Source: Candidatus Heimdallarchaeota archaeon (GTDB lineage Archaea; Asgardarchaeota; Heimdallarchaeia; JABLTI01). Taken from it: 64,000 bases of DNA. The position numbers and the translations under genes were made by a program. The stretch is taken from NCBI GenBank assembly GCA_019056785.1, contig DXJV01000062.1:9441-73440 (forward strand), written 5' to 3'. A model generated the notes under the pieces. The model made no database searches. It was not told where the DNA came from and saw only the letters and a program-made list of their open reading frames with translations. Shown in pieces: positions 42,195 to 48,905 of the stretch (positions are counted from its first letter, which is position 1; each line of letters begins with the position of its first letter).

Positions 42195-43295
42195 ATGCCA
42201 TCTCAACAACGCCCTTGTTTACGCTCTCTCGGTTTTTCTGTTGGTTTGTTGCCACCTGGAACTTTGAATGCCATTACTGATGTTCCTGGAGTTTTAGTTG
42301 GGCATTCAACCATAATCGAAGGTGAGGGGAAGCTTGTTCCTGGTAAGGGGCCTATACGCACCGGTGTTACTGTAATCCTCCCGCATTCAGAAAACATTTA
42401 CCGGCAAAAGGTTCCGGCAAGTTCATTCGTTTTAAATGGCTACGGTAAAACTATTGGGTTAGTGCAAATTGAGGAGCTTGGATATCTCGAGTCAATCATT
42501 GCATTAACAAACACTCTTAATGTCCCATTGGTGGCTAATGCTCTCATCGATTATCATCTCGAAACCAATCCGGACATTGGTATTAACACTTCTTCTATTA
42601 ATGTTGTTGTGGCAGAATGTAATGATGGTTATCTAAATGACATTCAAGGCAGGCATGTGAAAAAAGCGCATGTTTTTGAAGCCATTAAAAATGCTTCTCA
42701 AATTGTTACTGAGGGTGCTGTGGGGGCAGGCACTGGCATGAGTGCTTTTGGTTTTAAAGGAGGGATAGGCACGGCATCAAGAATTGTTTCTACTCATGAG
42801 GATCAATTCATTCTGGGCGTTCTTGTTCTCACAAACTTTGGTCGGAAAAAGGATTTACTGTTTCTTGGGCATCGGTTCCTTGAACTTTTATCACCACCGG
42901 TTACTGATGATAATTTTAATGCTCCTGCTGGTTCTATCATCGTCGTACTTGCTACTAATGCTCCCTTAACCTCGAGACAATTAAAACGACTTGCCAAACG
43001 CATTCCCTTAGGGATAGCCCGAACCGGTGGGATGGCTGCCCATTACTCGGGTGATATAATAATTGCTTTTTCAACAGCAAATAAACTACTTCATGATTCT
43101 GATGAGATCTTTAAAACTTTAACAATCGTTCGTGACTCGAGTAAATTGTTTGGTGAGCTACTGCAGGCAGCTGTGGAAGCTACAGAAGAAGCCATTCTTA
43201 ATTCGCTCTTAAAGGCACAAACTATTGTCGGAAGGGATGGACACCAAAAAACTGCTCTCCCACTTAATGTTCTTCAGCAGTTAAAAGAAAAATAA
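42195..43295 (+). CDS. dmpA: P1 family (S58) L-aminopeptidase/D-amidase
   Basis: 'NAITDVPGVLVGHST', 'GAVGAGTGM..FGFKGGIGTASR', autocleavage GS in 'GSII'. Confidence 0.9.
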   Translation: MPSQQRPCLRSLGFSVGLLPPGTLNAITDVPGVLVGHSTIIEGEGKLVPGKGPIRTGVTVILPHSENIYRQKVPASSFVLNGYGKTIGLVQIEELGYLESIIALTNTLNVPLVANALIDYHLETNPDIGINTSSINVVVAECNDGYLNDIQGRHVKKAHVFEAIKNASQIVTEGAVGAGTGMSAFGFKGGIGTASRIVSTHEDQFILGVLVLTNFGRKKDLLFLGHRFLELLSPPVTDDNFNAPAGSIIVVLATNAPLTSRQLKRLAKRIPLGIARTGGMAAHYSGDIIIAFSTANKLLHDSDEIFKTLTIVRDSSKLFGELLQAAVEATEEAILNSLLKAQTIVGRDGHQKTALPLNVLQQLKEK

Positions 43296-43339: not shown

Positions 43340-43570
43340 TTATACTTCTACGACAAGAATAATCTCTACTGGGCATTCTTCTTCTGCTTGTTTTGCTAAG
43401 TCAATTTTGTCGTCGTCAAAAGTTCCTTTCGATATTTCTGCGGTTGTTTCGCCATTAATTACTTGTGAAATGCCATTATTGTCGGATTCGAAATGACTTG
43501 GGTCAACATTCCAGCAGTTGCCGCATTGAATACACTCTGCTCTTTTAATTACGATCTGGTATTTGGTCAT
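43340..43570 (-). CDS. Single-cluster ferredoxin
   Basis: CIQCGNC...CPV. Confidence 0.9.
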   Translation of the reverse strand: MTKYQIVIKRAECIQCGNCWNVDPSHFESDNNGISQVINGETTAEISKGTFDDDKIDLAKQAEEECPVEIILVVEV

Positions 43571-43648
43571 TACTTCTCCTCAGTTGTTTATATTCGCCCA
43601 ATCAGCCATTTTTTCTTTATCAGGAGGAATGTTCGTAAATGGATGCGG

Positions 43649-44308
43649 TTAATTATTCAAAAATTTCACAATGACCTTTTTCACATCTTTTCGATGCTCA
43701 ATTTTCTCTTGTATCTCTTTTTTGACATTATTAGCAAATTGATGATCTTCAGGCAAGTCGACCGTTATTTCGATAATTTTCCCATCACTGCCATTTTTAA
43801 TTGAGATATTCGAGATAAGGTTTGTTCGAATAACATCAAGACCTGTTAAGGGATTCATTACATGCCGTAATCGCCGTTTTACGACTTCTTCCGTTGTCGG
43901 TTCGACCTCGTGAATGATGCCGTGGCGTTCTTCATAGTTTCGTATTGCTTCTCGTAATGAGGAGACCGCTAAAACAGAACAATGTGCTTTCACTGCTGGA
44001 AGACCGCCTAATTCTTCTGAGGCAGATTTCCAGGAAATTTTCTTGGCTTCATCTATTGTTTTGCCTTTTGCCATTTCTGTAATTATCGAACCGGTAGCGA
44101 TATTAGACGCGCAGCCATAGCTTTTGAATTTAATGTCCGTGATTCGTTTTGTTTTCTCATCGACTTTTAAAGTCAGTTGGACCATATCACCACATGCAGG
44201 GCTTCCTTCTATGGCCTTTCCATCGGGGTTCTCAATTTCCCCAACGTTTCTAGGGTTTTTGAAATGCTCTAAAACTTTTTTGGTGTAAGGTAGTTTTATC
44301 TTACTCAT
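43649..44308 (-). CDS. iscU: IscU/NifU-N scaffold fused to a C-terminal DUF59-like domain
   Basis: 'HFKNPRNVG', 'GSPACGD', 'YGCAS', 'LPAVKAHCS'; then 'VKRRLRHVMNPLTGLDVIRTNLI' DUF59-like segment. Confidence 0.85.
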   Translation of the reverse strand: MSKIKLPYTKKVLEHFKNPRNVGEIENPDGKAIEGSPACGDMVQLTLKVDEKTKRITDIKFKSYGCASNIATGSIITEMAKGKTIDEAKKISWKSASEELGGLPAVKAHCSVLAVSSLREAIRNYEERHGIIHEVEPTTEEVVKRRLRHVMNPLTGLDVIRTNLISNISIKNGSDGKIIEITVDLPEDHQFANNVKKEIQEKIEHRKDVKKVIVKFLNN

Positions 44309-44313
44309 TCCTC

Positions 44314-45477
44314 CTATTTGTTGCTAAGCGGACTTATTTCTCTTAAATTTTTTACTATTTCTGATATAATTTCTACTACTTTATCTACTTCTTTTTGCTT
44401 ATTAAATCGTCCGAAAGTGAATCTAATTGACCCATGGGCTCGTTCATGGTCGCCACCAATGCCCATAATCACATGACTTGCCTCTAGGGATTTACTGAAG
44501 CAAGCTGAGCCGGTGCTTACAGCAATGCCATGCATATCAAGGTGTAAAGTTATTGATTCTCCTTCTACGAAATGGAATGTAATATTGGCATTTTGTGGCG
44601 TTCGCTTCGTTCGGTGGCCATTGAGTGTGACATCCGGCACTTGTTTAAAGACTTTGTCAATCAATCTATCTCGAAGTTGTTTTAACCGTTCATTTTCTTC
44701 TGCAGTTATCAATTCTACTGCTTTTGCGAAGCCAACTGCACCTGGTATATTCTCAACACCTGGACGAAGGTTGAATTCTTGAAAGCCACCATCTAAGTGT
44801 TTTTTAATGGGAGTGTTTTTCCGCACAAAGAGGGCTCCAATTCCCCGGGGTCCGTGGATGGTATGAGCCGAGAGAGTTAAAAGATCGACGGGGAGTTTTT
44901 CAATATTAATCGCCACTCGGCCAAAAGTGTGTGTGGCATCTGAATGGAACAAGACTTTTTTCTCTTGACTAATCTCTGCGATAGCTTGTATATTTTGCAG
45001 GGTTCCAATTTCTTGATTAGCGTGTTGGATAGAAATTAGCACCGTTTCAGGAGTGATCGCATTTTGTAATGCTTCCAGATCAATGAACCCCTCACCATCA
45101 ACAGGCAGATAGGTCGCCTTATATCCCTCGCGTTCTAATGCCTTCGCAGAATTAAGGACCGGAAAGTCTTCAATAGTTGAAACAATAATATGTTTGCCTT
45201 TTTTCTTATTTGCCCGGAGCACGCCTTTTATTGCCAGATTACTGGACTCCGTGCTCCCTGAGGTGAAGACAATTTCTTCTGCTGTTGCTTCGAGTTTTTT
45301 TGCAATTTTTTCTCTTGAATCATCTAACGCTTCTCGTGCTTCTATGCCTAAGGTATAAGCGAATTCCGAGGTAGCCACAGCATAGGTATCAAAATAATAC
45401 TGTTTCATTGCTTCTAATACTCGTTCATCAAGGCGTGTGCTTGCTGAATTGTCTAAATAAATTAATTCATTTGCCAT
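44314..45477 (-). CDS. iscS: IscS-like cysteine desulfurase homolog lacking the PLP lysine
   Basis: IYLDNSAST, FTSGSTES and STGSAC are present, but SAHTIHGPRG replaces SxHKxxGPKG. Confidence 0.85.
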   Translation of the reverse strand: MANELIYLDNSASTRLDERVLEAMKQYYFDTYAVATSEFAYTLGIEAREALDDSREKIAKKLEATAEEIVFTSGSTESSNLAIKGVLRANKKKGKHIIVSTIEDFPVLNSAKALEREGYKATYLPVDGEGFIDLEALQNAITPETVLISIQHANQEIGTLQNIQAIAEISQEKKVLFHSDATHTFGRVAINIEKLPVDLLTLSAHTIHGPRGIGALFVRKNTPIKKHLDGGFQEFNLRPGVENIPGAVGFAKAVELITAEENERLKQLRDRLIDKVFKQVPDVTLNGHRTKRTPQNANITFHFVEGESITLHLDMHGIAVSTGSACFSKSLEASHVIMGIGGDHERAHGSIRFTFGRFNKQKEVDKVVEIISEIVKNLREISPLSNK

Positions 45478-45533
45478 TTTTTCATCATCTCATTCATTAT
45501 CTTTGAACAGTATGCAGGGTGATTCCTTCGATC

Positions 45534-45908
45534 TTAGGCATAGACCCCTACAGAACAGCATTCAGTTATTACCTTTTCGCTTAAATCTTCTTTTTTTAGC
45601 ATTATAATTTCCAAAATCATGTCTTTAGTGAATGTTTTTTCCTGAAGTCCCTTAAAGTCAACTAATTGGTGTCCAACAAGTGGATTATTTGCTTTAATTG
45701 TCTCCAAGCTAATTGTCAATTCTCCAACTCCTGCCAACTTCTGAAAGTCTAATTTTTGGCTAAGGGGGGCTTTTAATGTAATAACTTCGTCAAGAGAAAC
45801 GTTTCGCATGGCTTTATTTGCTTCCGGAAGTAGTGGCAGACAAGTTGCTCCTAAACGATTGTCTCTTACTGTTTTTTTGGCTCCGATATTAACCATGATT
45901 GGTTTCAC
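45534..45908 (-). CDS. Divergent TusA-like sulfur-carrier protein (putative)
   Basis: 'DNRLGATCLPLLPEANKAMRNVSLDEVITL' resembles the TusA N-terminus; C-terminal ECCSVGVYA. Confidence 0.45.
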   Translation of the reverse strand: MKPIMVNIGAKKTVRDNRLGATCLPLLPEANKAMRNVSLDEVITLKAPLSQKLDFQKLAGVGELTISLETIKANNPLVGHQLVDFKGLQEKTFTKDMILEIIMLKKEDLSEKVITECCSVGVYA

Positions 45909-46108: not shown

Positions 46109-47311
46109 GTGTTTGAGAGTGATGTTGACATGCTAAAGCTTAGGAAAAAAGTTTTGAATATTCTTGTTCTTTTCATTATTATTTACAATTTTAGTTTATA
46201 TGATGCTTTGGGGAAGAATAGTGCCTTACTTTTAGAAGAGGAACCATTGGAAGTTCCAATCGGTAATTTCACAAATTTTAATTTAATTTTTGATAATGAT
46301 AAAATTACCAGTATAAATTCCATTTCACAAATTTATTTCCAAGGTGGAGATATCCCTTCGTTCTATGCCGGCCCTCCTGTTAATTGGTTTTCTCCGGAGA
46401 AATACTTGCTCAGTCTCGAGTCGCTTGTGGGTAACTGCAGCACCTTCACGGTCCAATTTAAAATTGATTATTATTTTCCAAATGAAACGGGAATTACTAG
46501 ATTCATTATTTCCTTAGAGTCAAAGTATAATAATAAAGGGGAAAACATCCCGACCGAATTTTTATCAATTGATCAAACTTATAATAGCATCCGTATGCAA
46601 ACTGTCAAAGTTTTGGAACGTGTGAAATATTTTCACTTGTCTTCTCCCATAAACGGTTCTTTTATTTTCAAAATTCAGAAAACAGCCAAGACGCTTAGCT
46701 GCTCTTTTTGGGACAGTGATATACAGGTCACAAAAACAAGGAAATGGTCTTCTGGTAATTATTATCTTCCACTCCATAATTTTACTTTTGCTTTCTATTC
46801 CAAGACTGTGGATAATTCCTTGGTTATTTCTGAGATAAATGGAACTGTTGTTTCAGAGAATCTTGATTGGCAATTTTTACGAAAGATGGCGCTGATGTAT
46901 ACTACACTGGAAGCAGTAGCGGTTGCAATTATTATTCTTTTAATATTCTCGTTTTGGATCAGTAAAATCATTATGAAAAATCGCGCAGAAGCTCGAGCAA
47001 GGAGAGAGAACAAAATCGATTTTCAGAAATATATTCAACGAATAAAAACTGCTACACAAAGAGCCAAACAACGCAAAGCTGAGTTATCTGCTGAAGAACT
47101 CGCTTCTTTAACCCCCACTGTTTTTGAAGGTGTGCTAGAAGAGGGCGAAATTTGCATGATTTGTAAAATCCGGCTAAGAAAAGATAAAGAAATCCTGCAA
47201 TGTCCACTTTGTGGTTCACTCTTCCATAAAGAGCATTTGTTAGAATGGTTAACCGAAAAGGATTCGTGTCCTGTCTGTAAGGAACTTTTGAAACAAAAAA
47301 ATGATCACTGA
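46109..47311 (+). CDS. Single-pass membrane protein with cytoplasmic RING finger (putative E3 ligase)
   Basis: Signal peptide, ectodomain, TM, basic coiled coil, CMIC-x12-CPLC-x4-HxxH-xxEW-x6-CPVC. Confidence 0.8.
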   Translation: MFESDVDMLKLRKKVLNILVLFIIIYNFSLYDALGKNSALLLEEEPLEVPIGNFTNFNLIFDNDKITSINSISQIYFQGGDIPSFYAGPPVNWFSPEKYLLSLESLVGNCSTFTVQFKIDYYFPNETGITRFIISLESKYNNKGENIPTEFLSIDQTYNSIRMQTVKVLERVKYFHLSSPINGSFIFKIQKTAKTLSCSFWDSDIQVTKTRKWSSGNYYLPLHNFTFAFYSKTVDNSLVISEINGTVVSENLDWQFLRKMALMYTTLEAVAVAIIILLIFSFWISKIIMKNRAEARARRENKIDFQKYIQRIKTATQRAKQRKAELSAEELASLTPTVFEGVLEEGEICMICKIRLRKDKEILQCPLCGSLFHKEHLLEWLTEKDSCPVCKELLKQKNDH

Positions 47312-47362: not shown

Positions 47363-47614
47363 TCACCCCTCTTTTTTAAGAGGGATTCGAATGCGAATGA
47401 TCCATTCATTCCCTTTCTCTTCTACACTCAACAATTCGAGTTTTAAGGCTTTGACGGCCATAGGGATTTCTTTTTTAGAGGGAGGATGGTCACCATGAAC
47501 TTCGATGATGTCTCCTGGCGAAGCTTTCCGGATTGCATTGCGTGTTGCTACCAATGGAATGGGGCATGGTTGGCCTTTGCTATTAACAATGTATGTTTTA
47601 CTGTTAGCAGTCAT
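47363..47614 (-). CDS. tusA: TusA/SirA family sulfurtransferase
   Basis: 'NSKGQPCPIPLVATRNAIRKASPGDIIEV'. Confidence 0.85.
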   Translation of the reverse strand: MTANSKTYIVNSKGQPCPIPLVATRNAIRKASPGDIIEVHGDHPPSKKEIPMAVKALKLELLSVEEKGNEWIIRIRIPLKKEG

Positions 47615-47770: not shown

Positions 47771-48905
47771 TTATGTTGCACAGTAGGAAAGTTTCGCAAG
47801 ATCTTTAGAGAAGGTGAGCAACGCAAGTTTTAATCCTTCCATTTGTGTTAAATAAGGGAAGAACTCTTCTGCAATTTCTTCTGTGGGGATGGACTTTTTT
47901 TTACTGTGAGCAATGAGGATTGTTGCCAGGCTAATTAATTCTCCGGCATTTTCCGCGAGAATATGAGCTCCAACCAATTTTCCCGAGTCTTTCTCCCGCA
48001 AGAGTTTGATGAACCCTTTTGTATTATGTGCTGCTAATGCTTGTGGAACATATTCCATTGGTAAGGTTGTTGTTTCAATACTCATACCTTGTTCTAGTGC
48101 TTTCTATTCTGTTACTCCTATTGTTGCTACTTGTGGTTCTGTAAAAATTACTTGGGGAAGGACAGTGAGGTCTAACACTTTGTTGCTGTTTGTTAAAGCA
48201 TTTTCTGCTGTGATTTTTCTCCCGGCAACAGCGATTGTTTGTTTGTCAATGAAGTTTGCTGTGCCGCGAAGGAGTATGATATTTTCGTTTGAGGTAATCA
48301 CTTCTTTATATTTGCTCTTTCGTAATTTATTCACTAAGTTATCTTTTTGTTGGAGTACTTTTGGCCATGAAAACGAGATACTCTTTGCAGTAATAGCCGA
48401 GAAAGGTTGCTTTTCAAAAATGCATTTAGTTTTTGCCATTTTAATAAGAGTTTTTGAAGGAATGCAACCTATATTGACACACGTTCCTCCGATAATTCCT
48501 TTTTCAATTATAGCAACGCGAAAACCCAGCTCTGCACCTTTTATTGCCGCAAGCCATACCGGTTCCACTTGTGCCAATAACCACAAGTTCATAGTCAAAA
48601 AATTTCAGGGATGCAAATTGTTTTTTTTGTGGAGTAATTTTTTCCCGTGCGGTAATTTTGGCTTGGTATCCCACTTTGGCAATTGCCTTTTTAATGTCCC
48701 CATTATTTACTTCTCGAGTTGTTTGGATAATGCCTGTGCCTTTTTGCCAACCCGGAATATTAATTGCAAGTACTCCTTCCATAGCTTCTAAAGCGTTTTT
48801 AATATGTGTAACACAAGAAGAGCAAGTTATACCTTGAATTTCTAGGGTTATTGTTTCTATTTCTTGTATTCGTTCATTCTTCTTTTGATTTTCTCTGGAT
48901 TTCAA
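47771..48905 (-). pseudogene. merA: Mercuric reductase pseudogene
   Basis: HMA domain GITCSSC; [13 protein letters not shown]; C-terminal LSYCA (canonical LSCCA); frameshift near 48570; central NADPH domain deleted; in-frame TAG at 48104-48106. Confidence 0.85.

What the first reader, a model, noticed from the sequence alone, without database searches (positions are those of the whole stretch)
43340..45908. Fe-S assembly operon built on a PLP-less IscS homolog: candidate non-canonical sulfur-delivery system
Seen: the IscS homolog has Thr (ACC, 44860-44862, residue 206) where the Schiff-base Lys belongs (SAHTIHGPRG). It also has D104 for the PLP-stacking His (IEDFPV), Q155 for N, H183 for Q, and RPGV for RSGT. 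The mobile-loop Cys (STGSAC, C326) and the ORF are intact. ACC is two substitutions from a Lys codon and the losses are concerted, so a sequencing error is unlikely. It lies in a same-strand run: TusA-like gene, iscS*, iscU-DUF59, ferredoxin. Established: E. coli IscS K206/H104 are needed for PLP chemistry; Archaeoglobus fulgidus IscS has Asp instead of this Lys and was reported to lack desulfurase activity while supplying a Cys ligand to the IscU cluster. Inference: a separately derived pseudo-desulfurase that acts as cluster ligand or persulfide relay, taking sulfur from sulfide or the TusA-like partner rather than cysteine.
Basis: partly seen in the sequence, partly recalled or inferred. 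Interest (0 to 1): 0.85.

Follow-up and report, generated by a model that had tools for sequence, protein, structure and literature searches.

The report
Lysine-less IscS in eroded sulfur-relay cassette
This Heimdall-group archaeon has an iron-sulfur assembly operon built around an IscS look-alike that has lost its cofactor lysine; it belongs to a widespread cassette (TusA, DsrE2, lysine-less IscS, IscU-DUF59) that has been drawn once in a paper but never studied, and here the cassette is partly eroded.

Summary
The 387-aa IscS homologue (44314-45477, minus strand) has Thr206 (ACC), Asp104, Gln155, His183 and RPGV, and keeps the loop Cys326. Contigs from four other metagenomes carry the same codon.

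It is not strain decay and not a lineage novelty. All 120 closest database homologues (68-100% identity) carry D104 and Q155, and 116 carry T206. They come from Asgard archaea, Methanosarcinales, other methanogens, Dehalococcoidia, Syntrophales and other anaerobes. The protein is the orthologue of Methanosarcina acetivorans IscS1 (MA0808), which Deere et al. 2020 noted as lysine-less and left uncharacterised.

In 71 of 80 species genomes the gene sits in the cassette TusA-DsrE2-IscS(T)-IscU::DUF59. This scan has already reported that cassette on other DNA in at least 10 genomes.

What is specific here:
- The real tusA (47363-47614) is displaced by an inserted RING gene.
- IscS(T), IscU-DUF59, ferredoxin and TusA remain intact.
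- The assembly (82.5% complete) has a canonical SufS-like desulfurase, but no SufB and no lysine-bearing IscS were found.

Most likely function: a non-catalytic persulfide relay and cluster-assembly partner fed through TusA. This is inferred, not shown.

The parts
47363..47614 (-). tusA: 83-aa TusA sulfur carrier with the conserved CPxP cysteine (C17). First gene of the ancestral cassette, displaced here.
   Evidence: PF01206, 67 bits. 64-68% identical to the TusA that directly precedes DsrE2-IscS(T) in congeners. C17/P18/P20 are invariant in 73 of 73 cassettes.
46109..47311 (+). Opposite-strand gene for a membrane protein with a C-terminal RING finger, inserted between tusA and the rest of the cassette. 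Not part of the system.
   Evidence: zf-RING_2 and Prok-RING_1 matches. The same insertion is in the sister-species contig L029. It is absent from congeners L013-L016, where TusA-DsrE2-IscS are contiguous.
45534..45908 (-). Remnant of the cassette's DsrE2 (PF13686) gene; probably a pseudogene.
   Evidence: No Pfam match at E<=10, while orthologous slots score 112-130 bits. Only the C-terminal 78 aa align (35-45% identity). The N-terminal half, the ACDMTM Cys and the C-terminal 12 aa are lost. The gene is entirely gone in L029. Population variants: 4 nonsynonymous, 1 stop-loss, 3 synonymous.
44314..45477 (-). IscS(T): class I cysteine-desulfurase homologue without the PLP Schiff-base lysine. 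Orthologue of M. acetivorans IscS1.
   Evidence: Best solved relative is A. fulgidus IscS 4eb5 (364 bits).
44860..44862 (-). Codon 206, ACC = Thr, at the Schiff-base Lys position.
   Evidence: Unchanged in contigs of four other metagenomes. T in 116 of 120 homologues.
43649..44308 (-). IscU scaffold fused to a Cys-less DUF59 domain. Cluster ligands C39, D41, C66, H109 and C110 are present. Starts 5 bases after iscS(T).
   Evidence: NifU_N 155 bits plus FeS_assembly_P 36 bits. Ligands CDCHC are present in all 73 T-type cassettes where the alignment covers them. It is the only NifU_N match in the genome.
43340..43570 (-). 76-aa single-cluster ferredoxin (CxxCxxC...CP); likely electron donor.
   Evidence: Fer4_15 and Fer4_13 matches. 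Follows IscU-DUF59 in the Asgard-type cassettes L014, L015, L027, L028 and L029, but in only 2 of 80 species loci overall.

Best explanation
IscS(T) is a non-catalytic paralogue of the class I cysteine desulfurase. It cannot form the PLP internal aldimine and has lost the catalytic base, so it does not make persulfide from cysteine.

Proposed mechanism:
- It keeps the fold, the IscU partnership and the mobile-loop Cys326.
- It works with the IscU-DUF59 scaffold as the loop-cysteine partner. That cysteine receives sulfane sulfur by trans-persulfuration from TusA. In intact cassettes the route goes through the DsrE2-like protein, which is lost here.
- It hands the sulfur to IscU and may supply the fourth cluster ligand, as seen in A. 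fulgidus IscS-IscU.
- The adjacent ferredoxin would reduce S(0) to sulfide.
- TusA itself could be loaded by the genome's canonical SufS-like desulfurase or by environmental polysulfide or sulfide.

Shown: the residue losses, conservation under purifying selection, cassette membership, erosion of DsrE2 in this lineage, and presence of a canonical desulfurase elsewhere in the genome.

Inferred: lack of activity, direction of sulfur flow, and the roles of TusA, ferredoxin and DUF59.
For: 1. T206, D104, Q155 and H183 are invariant or nearly so in 120 homologues, and C326 is invariant.
2. 48 clade-specific fixed differences from lysine-bearing paralogues include a two-residue insertion (S37-E38-F39) in the active-site-lining N-terminal segment, so the pocket is remodelled rather than merely decayed.
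3. Against the 84%-identical orthologue, dN is 0.099 and dS is saturated, a nominal dN/dS of about 0.03. Population variants in IscS, IscU and Fdx are 7 synonymous to 1 nonsynonymous.
4. 71 of 80 species genomes carry TusA-DsrE2-IscS(T)-IscU::DUF59 in that order on one strand. The TusA Cys, the DsrE2 Cys and the IscU ligands are invariant.
5. Every lysine-less variant group sampled (T, L, Y, S, D/E) has tusA next to iscS-iscU in most loci: 21 of 29 and 77 of 79. None of 50 lysine-bearing loci has tusA within 3 kb.
6. The closest solved structure is the inactive A. fulgidus IscS, whose Cys ligates the IscU cluster (PMC8918507).
7. A canonical type II desulfurase (SMHK, RAGAHC) is encoded at contig 11.
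Against: - No biochemical data exist for any T-type member. M. acetivorans IscS1 was insoluble when expressed alone, and only IscS2/IscU2 were consistently detected in the proteome.
- T-type keeps the phosphate-binding T76, S203 and H205, the pyridine-N partner D180 and the substrate-carboxylate Arg (R352). Some ligand may therefore still bind in the pocket.
- A. fulgidus IscS binds PMP or PLP non-covalently.
- In this lineage DsrE2 is lost and tusA is uncoupled from the operon, so the relay is either dispensable or supplied in trans. A second DsrE2-TusA locus exists on contig 80.
- The TusA association rests on only two or three well-supported clades, so it is not statistically independent.
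Confidence: 0.55

Rival explanations
1. Pure scaffold or ligand role with free sulfide as the sulfur source, as in the A. fulgidus model. IscS(T) only stabilises IscU and supplies a Cys ligand. Sulfide from the sulfidic habitat enters the cluster directly. TusA and DsrE2 serve another purpose, such as protection or regulation.
For: - Proposed for A. fulgidus IscS.
- SMS systems and E. coli lacking IscS can use sulfide.
- This lineage lost DsrE2 and uncoupled tusA, yet keeps IscS(T)-IscU under purifying selection.
- The DNA occurs in sediment and hydrothermal-vent metagenomes.
Against: - tusA linkage is near-universal in all lysine-less groups and absent from 50 lysine-bearing loci.
- The carrier cysteines are invariant.
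- A ferredoxin for reduction would be unnecessary if sulfide were used directly.
Confidence: 0.2
2. Still an enzyme. The remodelled pocket binds PLP or PMP non-covalently, or another phosphorylated ligand, and catalyses a different or slower sulfur-mobilising reaction.
For: - T76, S203, H205, D180 and R352 are retained and invariant or nearly so.
- The replacements are fixed, specific residues (D104, Q155, H183, T206, E38) rather than random ones.
- A. fulgidus IscS retains PMP.
Against: - The lysine is both the Schiff-base anchor and the general base in desulfurases (established knowledge).
- The ring-stacking His and both O3' partners are replaced.
- The A. fulgidus D199K revertant still lacked normal PLP chemistry.
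Confidence: 0.1
3. The former PLP pocket has become a metal (Fe2+) site formed by D104, D180, H183 and H205, making IscS(T) the iron donor for IscU.
For: Four potential ligands (two Asp, two His) are invariant or nearly invariant at positions that surround the cofactor in canonical IscS. No frataxin- or IscA-type gene was found in the genome.
Against: Purely geometric speculation. The AlphaFold model was low-confidence in exactly these loops, and coordinates could not be inspected. D180 and H205 are also conserved in ordinary IscS.
Confidence: 0.07
4. A non-functional relic: a decaying paralogue on its way to loss, like its neighbours (the DsrE2 remnant and the MerA-like pseudogene).
For: There is local gene decay around it. 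The cassette is patchy in the genus: found in 4 of 11 genomes. In G011 the IscS(T) frame carries two stop codons.
Against: - The ORF is intact. The nominal dN/dS is about 0.03 (dS saturated), and population variants are 7 synonymous to 1 nonsynonymous.
- It is 68-75% identical across domains.
Confidence: 0.03

Closest known systems
Methanosarcina acetivorans isc1 cluster: MA0810 (SirA/TusA-like), MA0809 (DrsE superfamily), MA0808 (IscS1), MA0807 (IscU1, 24.2 kDa). Deere et al. 2020, PMC7585200.
   Same: - About 70% identity to Methanosarcina IscS1-type proteins, with the same D104/Q155/H183/T206/C326 signature.
- The same IscU-DUF59 fusion.
- The same ancestral gene order, seen in M. barkeri locus L024.
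- IscS1 was noted to lack the lysine and to 'function as A. fulgidus IscS'.
   Different: - Here DsrE2 is a remnant and tusA is displaced by an inserted RING gene.
- A ferredoxin gene follows IscU, which is absent in Methanosarcina.
- The host is a Heimdall-group Asgard archaeon in which no SufBC and no lysine-bearing IscS2/3 equivalent was found.
- The Methanosarcina cluster is itself uncharacterised.
Archaeoglobus fulgidus IscS-IscU (PDB 4EB5, 4EB7, 4HVK, 4R5F).
   Same: - Best solved relative (364 bits, full length).
- The lysine is replaced and the loop Cys is kept.
- Paired with IscU.
- Reported inactive, with the Cys ligating the [2Fe-2S] cluster.
- Asp-type homologues in Asgard also have tusA upstream: 77 of 79 loci.
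   Different: - A. fulgidus-type proteins keep H104 and N155 and lose the substrate Arg (signature HNDAND..L). T-type loses H104, N155 and Q183 and keeps the Arg (DQDHHT..R).
- The two types fall in different clades.
- The A. fulgidus-type partner IscU usually lacks DUF59, and DsrE2 is present in only 12 of 79 loci.
E. coli IscS-TusA-TusBCD sulfur relay and the Rhd-TusA-DsrE2 relay of sulfur oxidisers.
   Same: The same protein families (IscS fold, TusA, DsrE-fold carriers), with conserved carrier cysteines.
   Different: In E. coli sulfur flows from an active IscS to TusA for tRNA thiolation. Here IscS cannot generate persulfide, so the flow must be reversed or start elsewhere, and the end point is an IscU scaffold. 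This comparison rests on established knowledge and was not tested here.
MIS (minimal iron-sulfur system, MisS-MisU; Garcia et al. 2022, as summarised in PMC13066941).
   Same: A two-gene S-U core without chaperones or A-type carriers. No PF01521 match was found in the genome.
   Different: MIS is defined with a functional cysteine desulfurase. This one lacks the catalytic lysine and comes with carrier genes.

Membership tests
Catalytically competent class I cysteine desulfurase (IscS/NifS) | Aminotransferase class V fold | tested here: met
   PF00266, 242 bits over 6-367. E = 5.7e-108 to 4eb5 and 6e-89 to E. coli IscS 1p3w.
Catalytically competent class I cysteine desulfurase (IscS/NifS) | Schiff-base and general-base lysine (SxHK) | tested here: not met
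   Thr206, codon ACC. Lysine-bearing paralogues have SSHK.
Catalytically competent class I cysteine desulfurase (IscS/NifS) | PLP ring and O3' contacts (His104, Asn155, Gln183) and the Thr of RSGT | tested here: not met
   D104, Q155, H183 and V241.
Catalytically competent class I cysteine desulfurase (IscS/NifS) | Mobile-loop persulfide cysteine (SxGSAC) | tested here: met
   STGSAC, with C326 in 120 of 120 homologues.
Catalytically competent class I cysteine desulfurase (IscS/NifS) | PLP binding and cysteine desulfurase activity | not testable with these tools
   Needs purified protein.
T-type lysine-less IscS (M. acetivorans IscS1 orthologues) | Signature D104/Q155/D180/H183/H205/T206/C326/R352 and at least 65% identity to other members | tested here: met
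   In the 50%-identity library the best match is 65% identical and the next full-length match 51%. The clade has SH-like support of 99.
T-type lysine-less IscS (M. acetivorans IscS1 orthologues) | Immediately followed by IscU fused to DUF59 | tested here: met
   5-base gap. NifU_N + FeS_assembly_P. 74 of 76 cassettes have the fusion.
T-type lysine-less IscS (M. acetivorans IscS1 orthologues) | Immediately preceded by tusA and an intact DsrE_2 gene | tested here: not met
   The DsrE2 slot is a remnant. tusA is about 1.9 kb away, behind an inserted gene. The ancestral state is seen in congeners.
A. fulgidus-type (Asp) inactive IscS | Asp/Glu at the lysine position, with His104 and Asn155 retained and the substrate Arg lost | tested here: not met
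   Signature DQDHHT..R versus HNDAND..L/V. Separate clades.
A. fulgidus-type (Asp) inactive IscS | Loop Cys ligates the [2Fe-2S] cluster on IscU | not testable with these tools
   Needs a structure of the complex.
MIS (MisS-MisU minimal system) | Adjacent S-U gene pair without HscAB, IscA or Fdx-type accessories, and a functional desulfurase | tested here: inconclusive
   The pair is present and no A-type carrier was found. However, the desulfurase residues are lost, and carrier and ferredoxin genes are attached.

The most novel reading that the evidence does not exclude
Lysine-less IscS homologues together with TusA (and often DsrE2) form a cysteine-independent, carrier-fed route of sulfur into IscU-type Fe-S assembly. 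This route is widespread in anaerobes, including most Asgard lineages. In this Heimdall genus no SufB was found in 11 genomes, and in this genome no lysine-bearing IscS-IscU was found either. The T-type module with its DUF59-fused scaffold could therefore be the cell's only Fe-S scaffold system. It would work even without DsrE2, drawing sulfur from a stand-alone SufS-like enzyme or from environmental sulfane sulfur.
Probability: 0.3. Interest if true: 0.75.

Novelty: new member of a known kind. Interest (0 to 1): 0.5.

Why it matters
Where sulfur comes from in Fe-S assembly systems whose 'desulfurase' is dead has been open since the A. fulgidus IscS structures. The answer offered so far is free sulfide.

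The gene neighbourhoods suggest a concrete alternative that can be tested: TusA and DsrE2 carriers hand sulfane sulfur to the retained loop cysteine.

This window adds two things. First, a natural variant that has shed DsrE2 but keeps IscS(T), IscU-DUF59 and TusA under purifying selection, which indicates which parts are dispensable. Second, an Asgard host in which this module may be the main scaffold system.

The IscU::DUF59 fusion also links a scaffold to a domain that eukaryotes use in cytosolic Fe-S protein targeting (CIA2/MIP18). The family itself is already noted in the literature, and this scan has reported it repeatedly, so the finding is not new as a kind.

Tried and rejected
- **Complex prediction, IscS(T) + TusA:** score 0.14, below the mark, so no verdict either way.
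- **AlphaFold2 model from a 27-row alignment:** mean pLDDT 65.5, and below 50 in the active-site loops (28-49, 205-212, 228-256, 313-350). It was not used for any claim and no fold search was run on it.
- **RNA evidence:** no RNA holder was listed, so nothing can be said about expression.
- **Independent-contrast test of 'lysine-less goes with tusA':** only 2 independent pairs were available, so the test has no power. The association is reported descriptively only.
- **Conserved extra components in the 3-kb flanks of 85 loci:** only lineage-specific neighbours turned up (HIT, nitroreductase, DUF2284, P-type ATPase and others). The idea of consistent oxidative-stress neighbours, seen in loci L025, L026 and L028, did not generalise.
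- **Literature searches:** no paper contained TusA + DsrE2 + IscU together. A search on MA0808/MA0807/IscS1 found no relevant paper beyond Deere 2020. Searches on IscU + DUF59 and on DsrE + TusA + methanogen found nothing describing this cassette.
- **Sequencing error or strain-specific decay:** rejected.
- **'TusA-like' reading of ORF 45534-45908:** rejected.
Full report
**1. The observation**

The minus-strand run at 43340-45908 holds four ORFs:
- a 124-aa ORF (45534-45908);
- a 387-aa Aminotran_5 protein (44314-45477; PF00266, 242 bits);
- a 219-aa IscU fused to a DUF59 domain (43649-44308; NifU_N 155 bits, FeS_assembly_P 36 bits);
- a 76-aa single-cluster ferredoxin (43340-43570).

The IscS homologue reads SAHTIHGPRG, with ACC at 44860-44862. 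It also has IEDFPV, HANQEIG, DATHTF, RPGV and STGSAC. Lysine-bearing paralogues from the same genus show EIEH, HANNEIG, DAVQT, SSHKLYGPKG and RSGT at the aligned positions. The E. coli numbering is from my own knowledge of IscS.

Logan contigs from four further metagenomes cover codon 206 without any difference. Five near-identical proteins occur on several contigs. A sequencing error is excluded.

**2. Not strain decay and not a local invention**

All 120 best database homologues (68-100% identity) carry D104 and Q155. 116 carry T206, 117 carry H183, and all carry C326. 91 of 387 positions are invariant, and 48 positions are fixed differently from lysine-bearing paralogues. These include a two-residue insertion (S37-E38-F39) in the active-site-lining N-terminal segment.

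Source labels include Heimdall- and Thorarchaeota, Methanosarcina, Methanolobus, Methermicoccus and Thermoplasmata, as well as bacteria. A scan of one genome per species found 504 genomes with relatives. The best 80 (67-75% identity) span these groups:
- Heimdallarchaeota;
- Methanosarcinales;
- Methanobacteriaceae;
- Methanofastidiosum;
- Methanomassiliicoccales;
- Dehalococcoidia and Anaerolineae;
- Syntrophales;
- Spirochaetia;
- Thermotogae.

In a library clustered at 50% identity, the best match is 65% identical and the next full-length match only 51%. The group is therefore tight and isolated.

Against an 84%-identical orthologue from a sister species (L029), dN is 0.099 with dS saturated, a nominal dN/dS of about 0.03.

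**3. What is already known**

Deere et al. [quoted passage not shown] They state that IscS1 (MA0808, motif STGSACFS) lacks PLP-binding residues and the catalytic lysine 'like A. fulgidus IscS'. IscU1 (MA0807) is 24.2 kDa. IscS1 formed inclusion bodies when expressed, and only IscS2/IscU2 were consistently seen in proteomes. Their Fig. S1 legend lists MA0811 (HIT), MA0810 (SirA-like) and MA0809 (DrsE superfamily) next to it.

The M. barkeri locus shows exactly TusA, DsrE_2, IscS(T) and IscU-DUF59. The window's protein is thus an orthologue of IscS1. I found no paper that studies this cluster.

This scan has already reported the same cassette on other DNA in at least 10 genomes, with the same reading.

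**4. The cassette and its erosion here**

In 71 of 80 species genomes the order is TusA-DsrE2-IscS(T)-IscU::DUF59 on one strand. The TusA CPxP cysteine (73 of 73), the DsrE2 AC(D/E)MTM cysteine (75 of 75) and the IscU ligands C/D/C/H/C (73 of 73) are invariant wherever the alignment covers them. Congeners of the window's genome (L013-L016) have the contiguous cassette plus the ferredoxin.

- It has no Pfam match even at E<=10, whereas orthologous slots score 112-130 bits for PF13686.
- Only its last 78 residues align.
- The N-terminal half is gone, the conserved Cys is replaced (TKDMIL for ACDMTM), and the C-terminus is cut.
- In the sister species the gene has vanished, leaving a 282-base spacer.
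- Population variants in the remnant are 4 nonsynonymous, 1 stop-loss and 3 synonymous. In IscS, IscU and Fdx they are 1 nonsynonymous and 7 synonymous.

The true tusA (47363-47614) is intact, but an opposite-strand RING gene is inserted between it and the rest. Upstream of tusA, a MerA-like gene is also broken.

This lineage has therefore kept IscS(T), IscU-DUF59, Fdx and TusA while shedding DsrE2.

**5. Genome context**

The assembly has 2.87 Mb in 102 contigs and is 82.5% complete. It encodes a canonical type II desulfurase (422 aa; SMHK, RAGAHC) on contig 11. The fused gene is its only IscU. No SufB/D core and no A-type carrier were found.

None of 10 congeners has SufB. Seven congeners have a lysine-bearing IscS-IscU pair (about 47% identity to IscS(T)), and three have both types. 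In this genome the lysine-bearing pair was not found. Because the assembly is incomplete, that is not proof of absence.

A second, paralogous DsrE2-TusA locus lies on contig 80.

Of five other cassette-bearing genomes tested, four also have a lysine-bearing IscS. A Methanofastidiosum MAG had only the T-type.

**6. The wider family of lysine-less IscS**

Among 155 aligned sequences (the nearest cluster representatives plus T-type and congener references), 33 lack the lysine. Replacements include T, L, D, M, Q, P, S and A, and all 33 keep the loop Cys.

The named groups are:
- an Asgard-only L-type (HVEYHL);
- an Aquificota Y-type;
- a Desulfobacterales S-type;
- the A. fulgidus-like D/E-type, which is the common form across Loki-, Hod-, Thor-, Odin- and Helarchaeota.

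tusA lies beside iscS-iscU in 21 of 29 and in 77 of 79 lysine-less loci. It was not found within 3 kb of any of 50 lysine-bearing loci, even at relaxed thresholds.

The trees place T-type with L-type (SH-like support 91-97), apart from the D-type clade (96-99). The minimum number of lysine gains or losses ranges from 2 to 8 depending on the sample. 'Separately derived from A. fulgidus' is therefore plausible but unresolved. The tusA association rests on too few independent contrasts for statistics.

**7. Mechanism**

The loss of the Schiff-base and general-base lysine, of the stacking His and of both O3' partners argues strongly against PLP-dependent desulfuration. This follows from established enzymology, and the A. 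fulgidus protein is experimentally inactive.

Three features point to trans-persulfuration onto Cys326 and delivery to IscU, with IscS(T) perhaps also supplying a cluster ligand as in 4EB5:
- the invariant loop Cys;
- the obligatory IscU partner;
- the linkage to cysteine-bearing carriers, plus, in the Asgard-type cassettes, a ferredoxin.

Retention of T76, S203, H205, D180 and R352 leaves room for a bound ligand or metal, so two minority readings are kept. Loss of DsrE2 here shows that it is not essential for keeping the rest.

I put 0.55 on the relay reading, 0.2 on sulfide-fed scaffolding, 0.1 on residual or new catalysis, 0.07 on a metal site and 0.03 on a non-functional relic.

**8. Verdict**

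Its particular value is the eroded cassette and the Asgard host, which may have no other scaffold. Interest 0.5; new member of a known kind.

Noticed in passing
window 47771-48905 (-): A MerA-like gene (HMA domain plus pyridine-nucleotide disulfide oxidoreductase) upstream of tusA is a pseudogene. Against the intact 572-aa orthologue in L029 it matches residues 1-127 in one frame and 118-230 and 419-572 in another, with about 190 codons deleted.
   Followed up: partly
window 46109-47311 (+): A 400-aa protein with an N-terminal hydrophobic segment, a beta-rich region, a transmembrane helix and a C-terminal RING finger is inserted inside the ancestral sulfur-relay cassette. The same insertion is present in the sister species, at 43% protein identity, so the gene is fast-evolving.
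   Followed up: partly
L130 (own genome, contig 80: 81655-84612): A second sulfur-relay locus: an intact DsrE_2 protein (139 aa, 127 bits), a TusA-like protein (92 aa, CPLP) and a divergent pair of DsrE/DsrF-like genes. Its DsrE_2 is only 38% identical to the cassette-type DsrE2.
   Followed up: partly
L131-L140 (Asgard); L146-L161 (Aquificota); L175, L181 (Desulfobacterales): Further lysine-less IscS variant groups with Leu, Tyr or Ser at the Schiff-base position. In most loci each is next to iscU and tusA. The L-type order is IscS-IscU-TusA, and that group appears confined to Asgard archaea.
   Followed up: partly
L016 (congener G011, contig 146): The T-type IscS frame in this related genome contains two stop codons (TAG and TAA) and is split into 303-aa and 104-aa pieces. 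This may be a second, independent decay of the cassette or an assembly error.
   Followed up: no
L027 versus L015: A JGI contig whose protein is labelled 'Bathyarchaeia' by one source encodes a TusA identical to that of the Heimdall congener G009. Some taxon labels on the homologues (Bathyarchaeia, Zixibacteria) may therefore be binning errors.
   Followed up: no
window 42195-43295 (+): A peptidase S58 (DmpA-type) gene lies convergent to the ferredoxin. The same neighbour is present in the sister species (73% identity, nominal dN/dS about 0.08 with dS near saturation), so this boundary of the cassette is stable.
   Followed up: no
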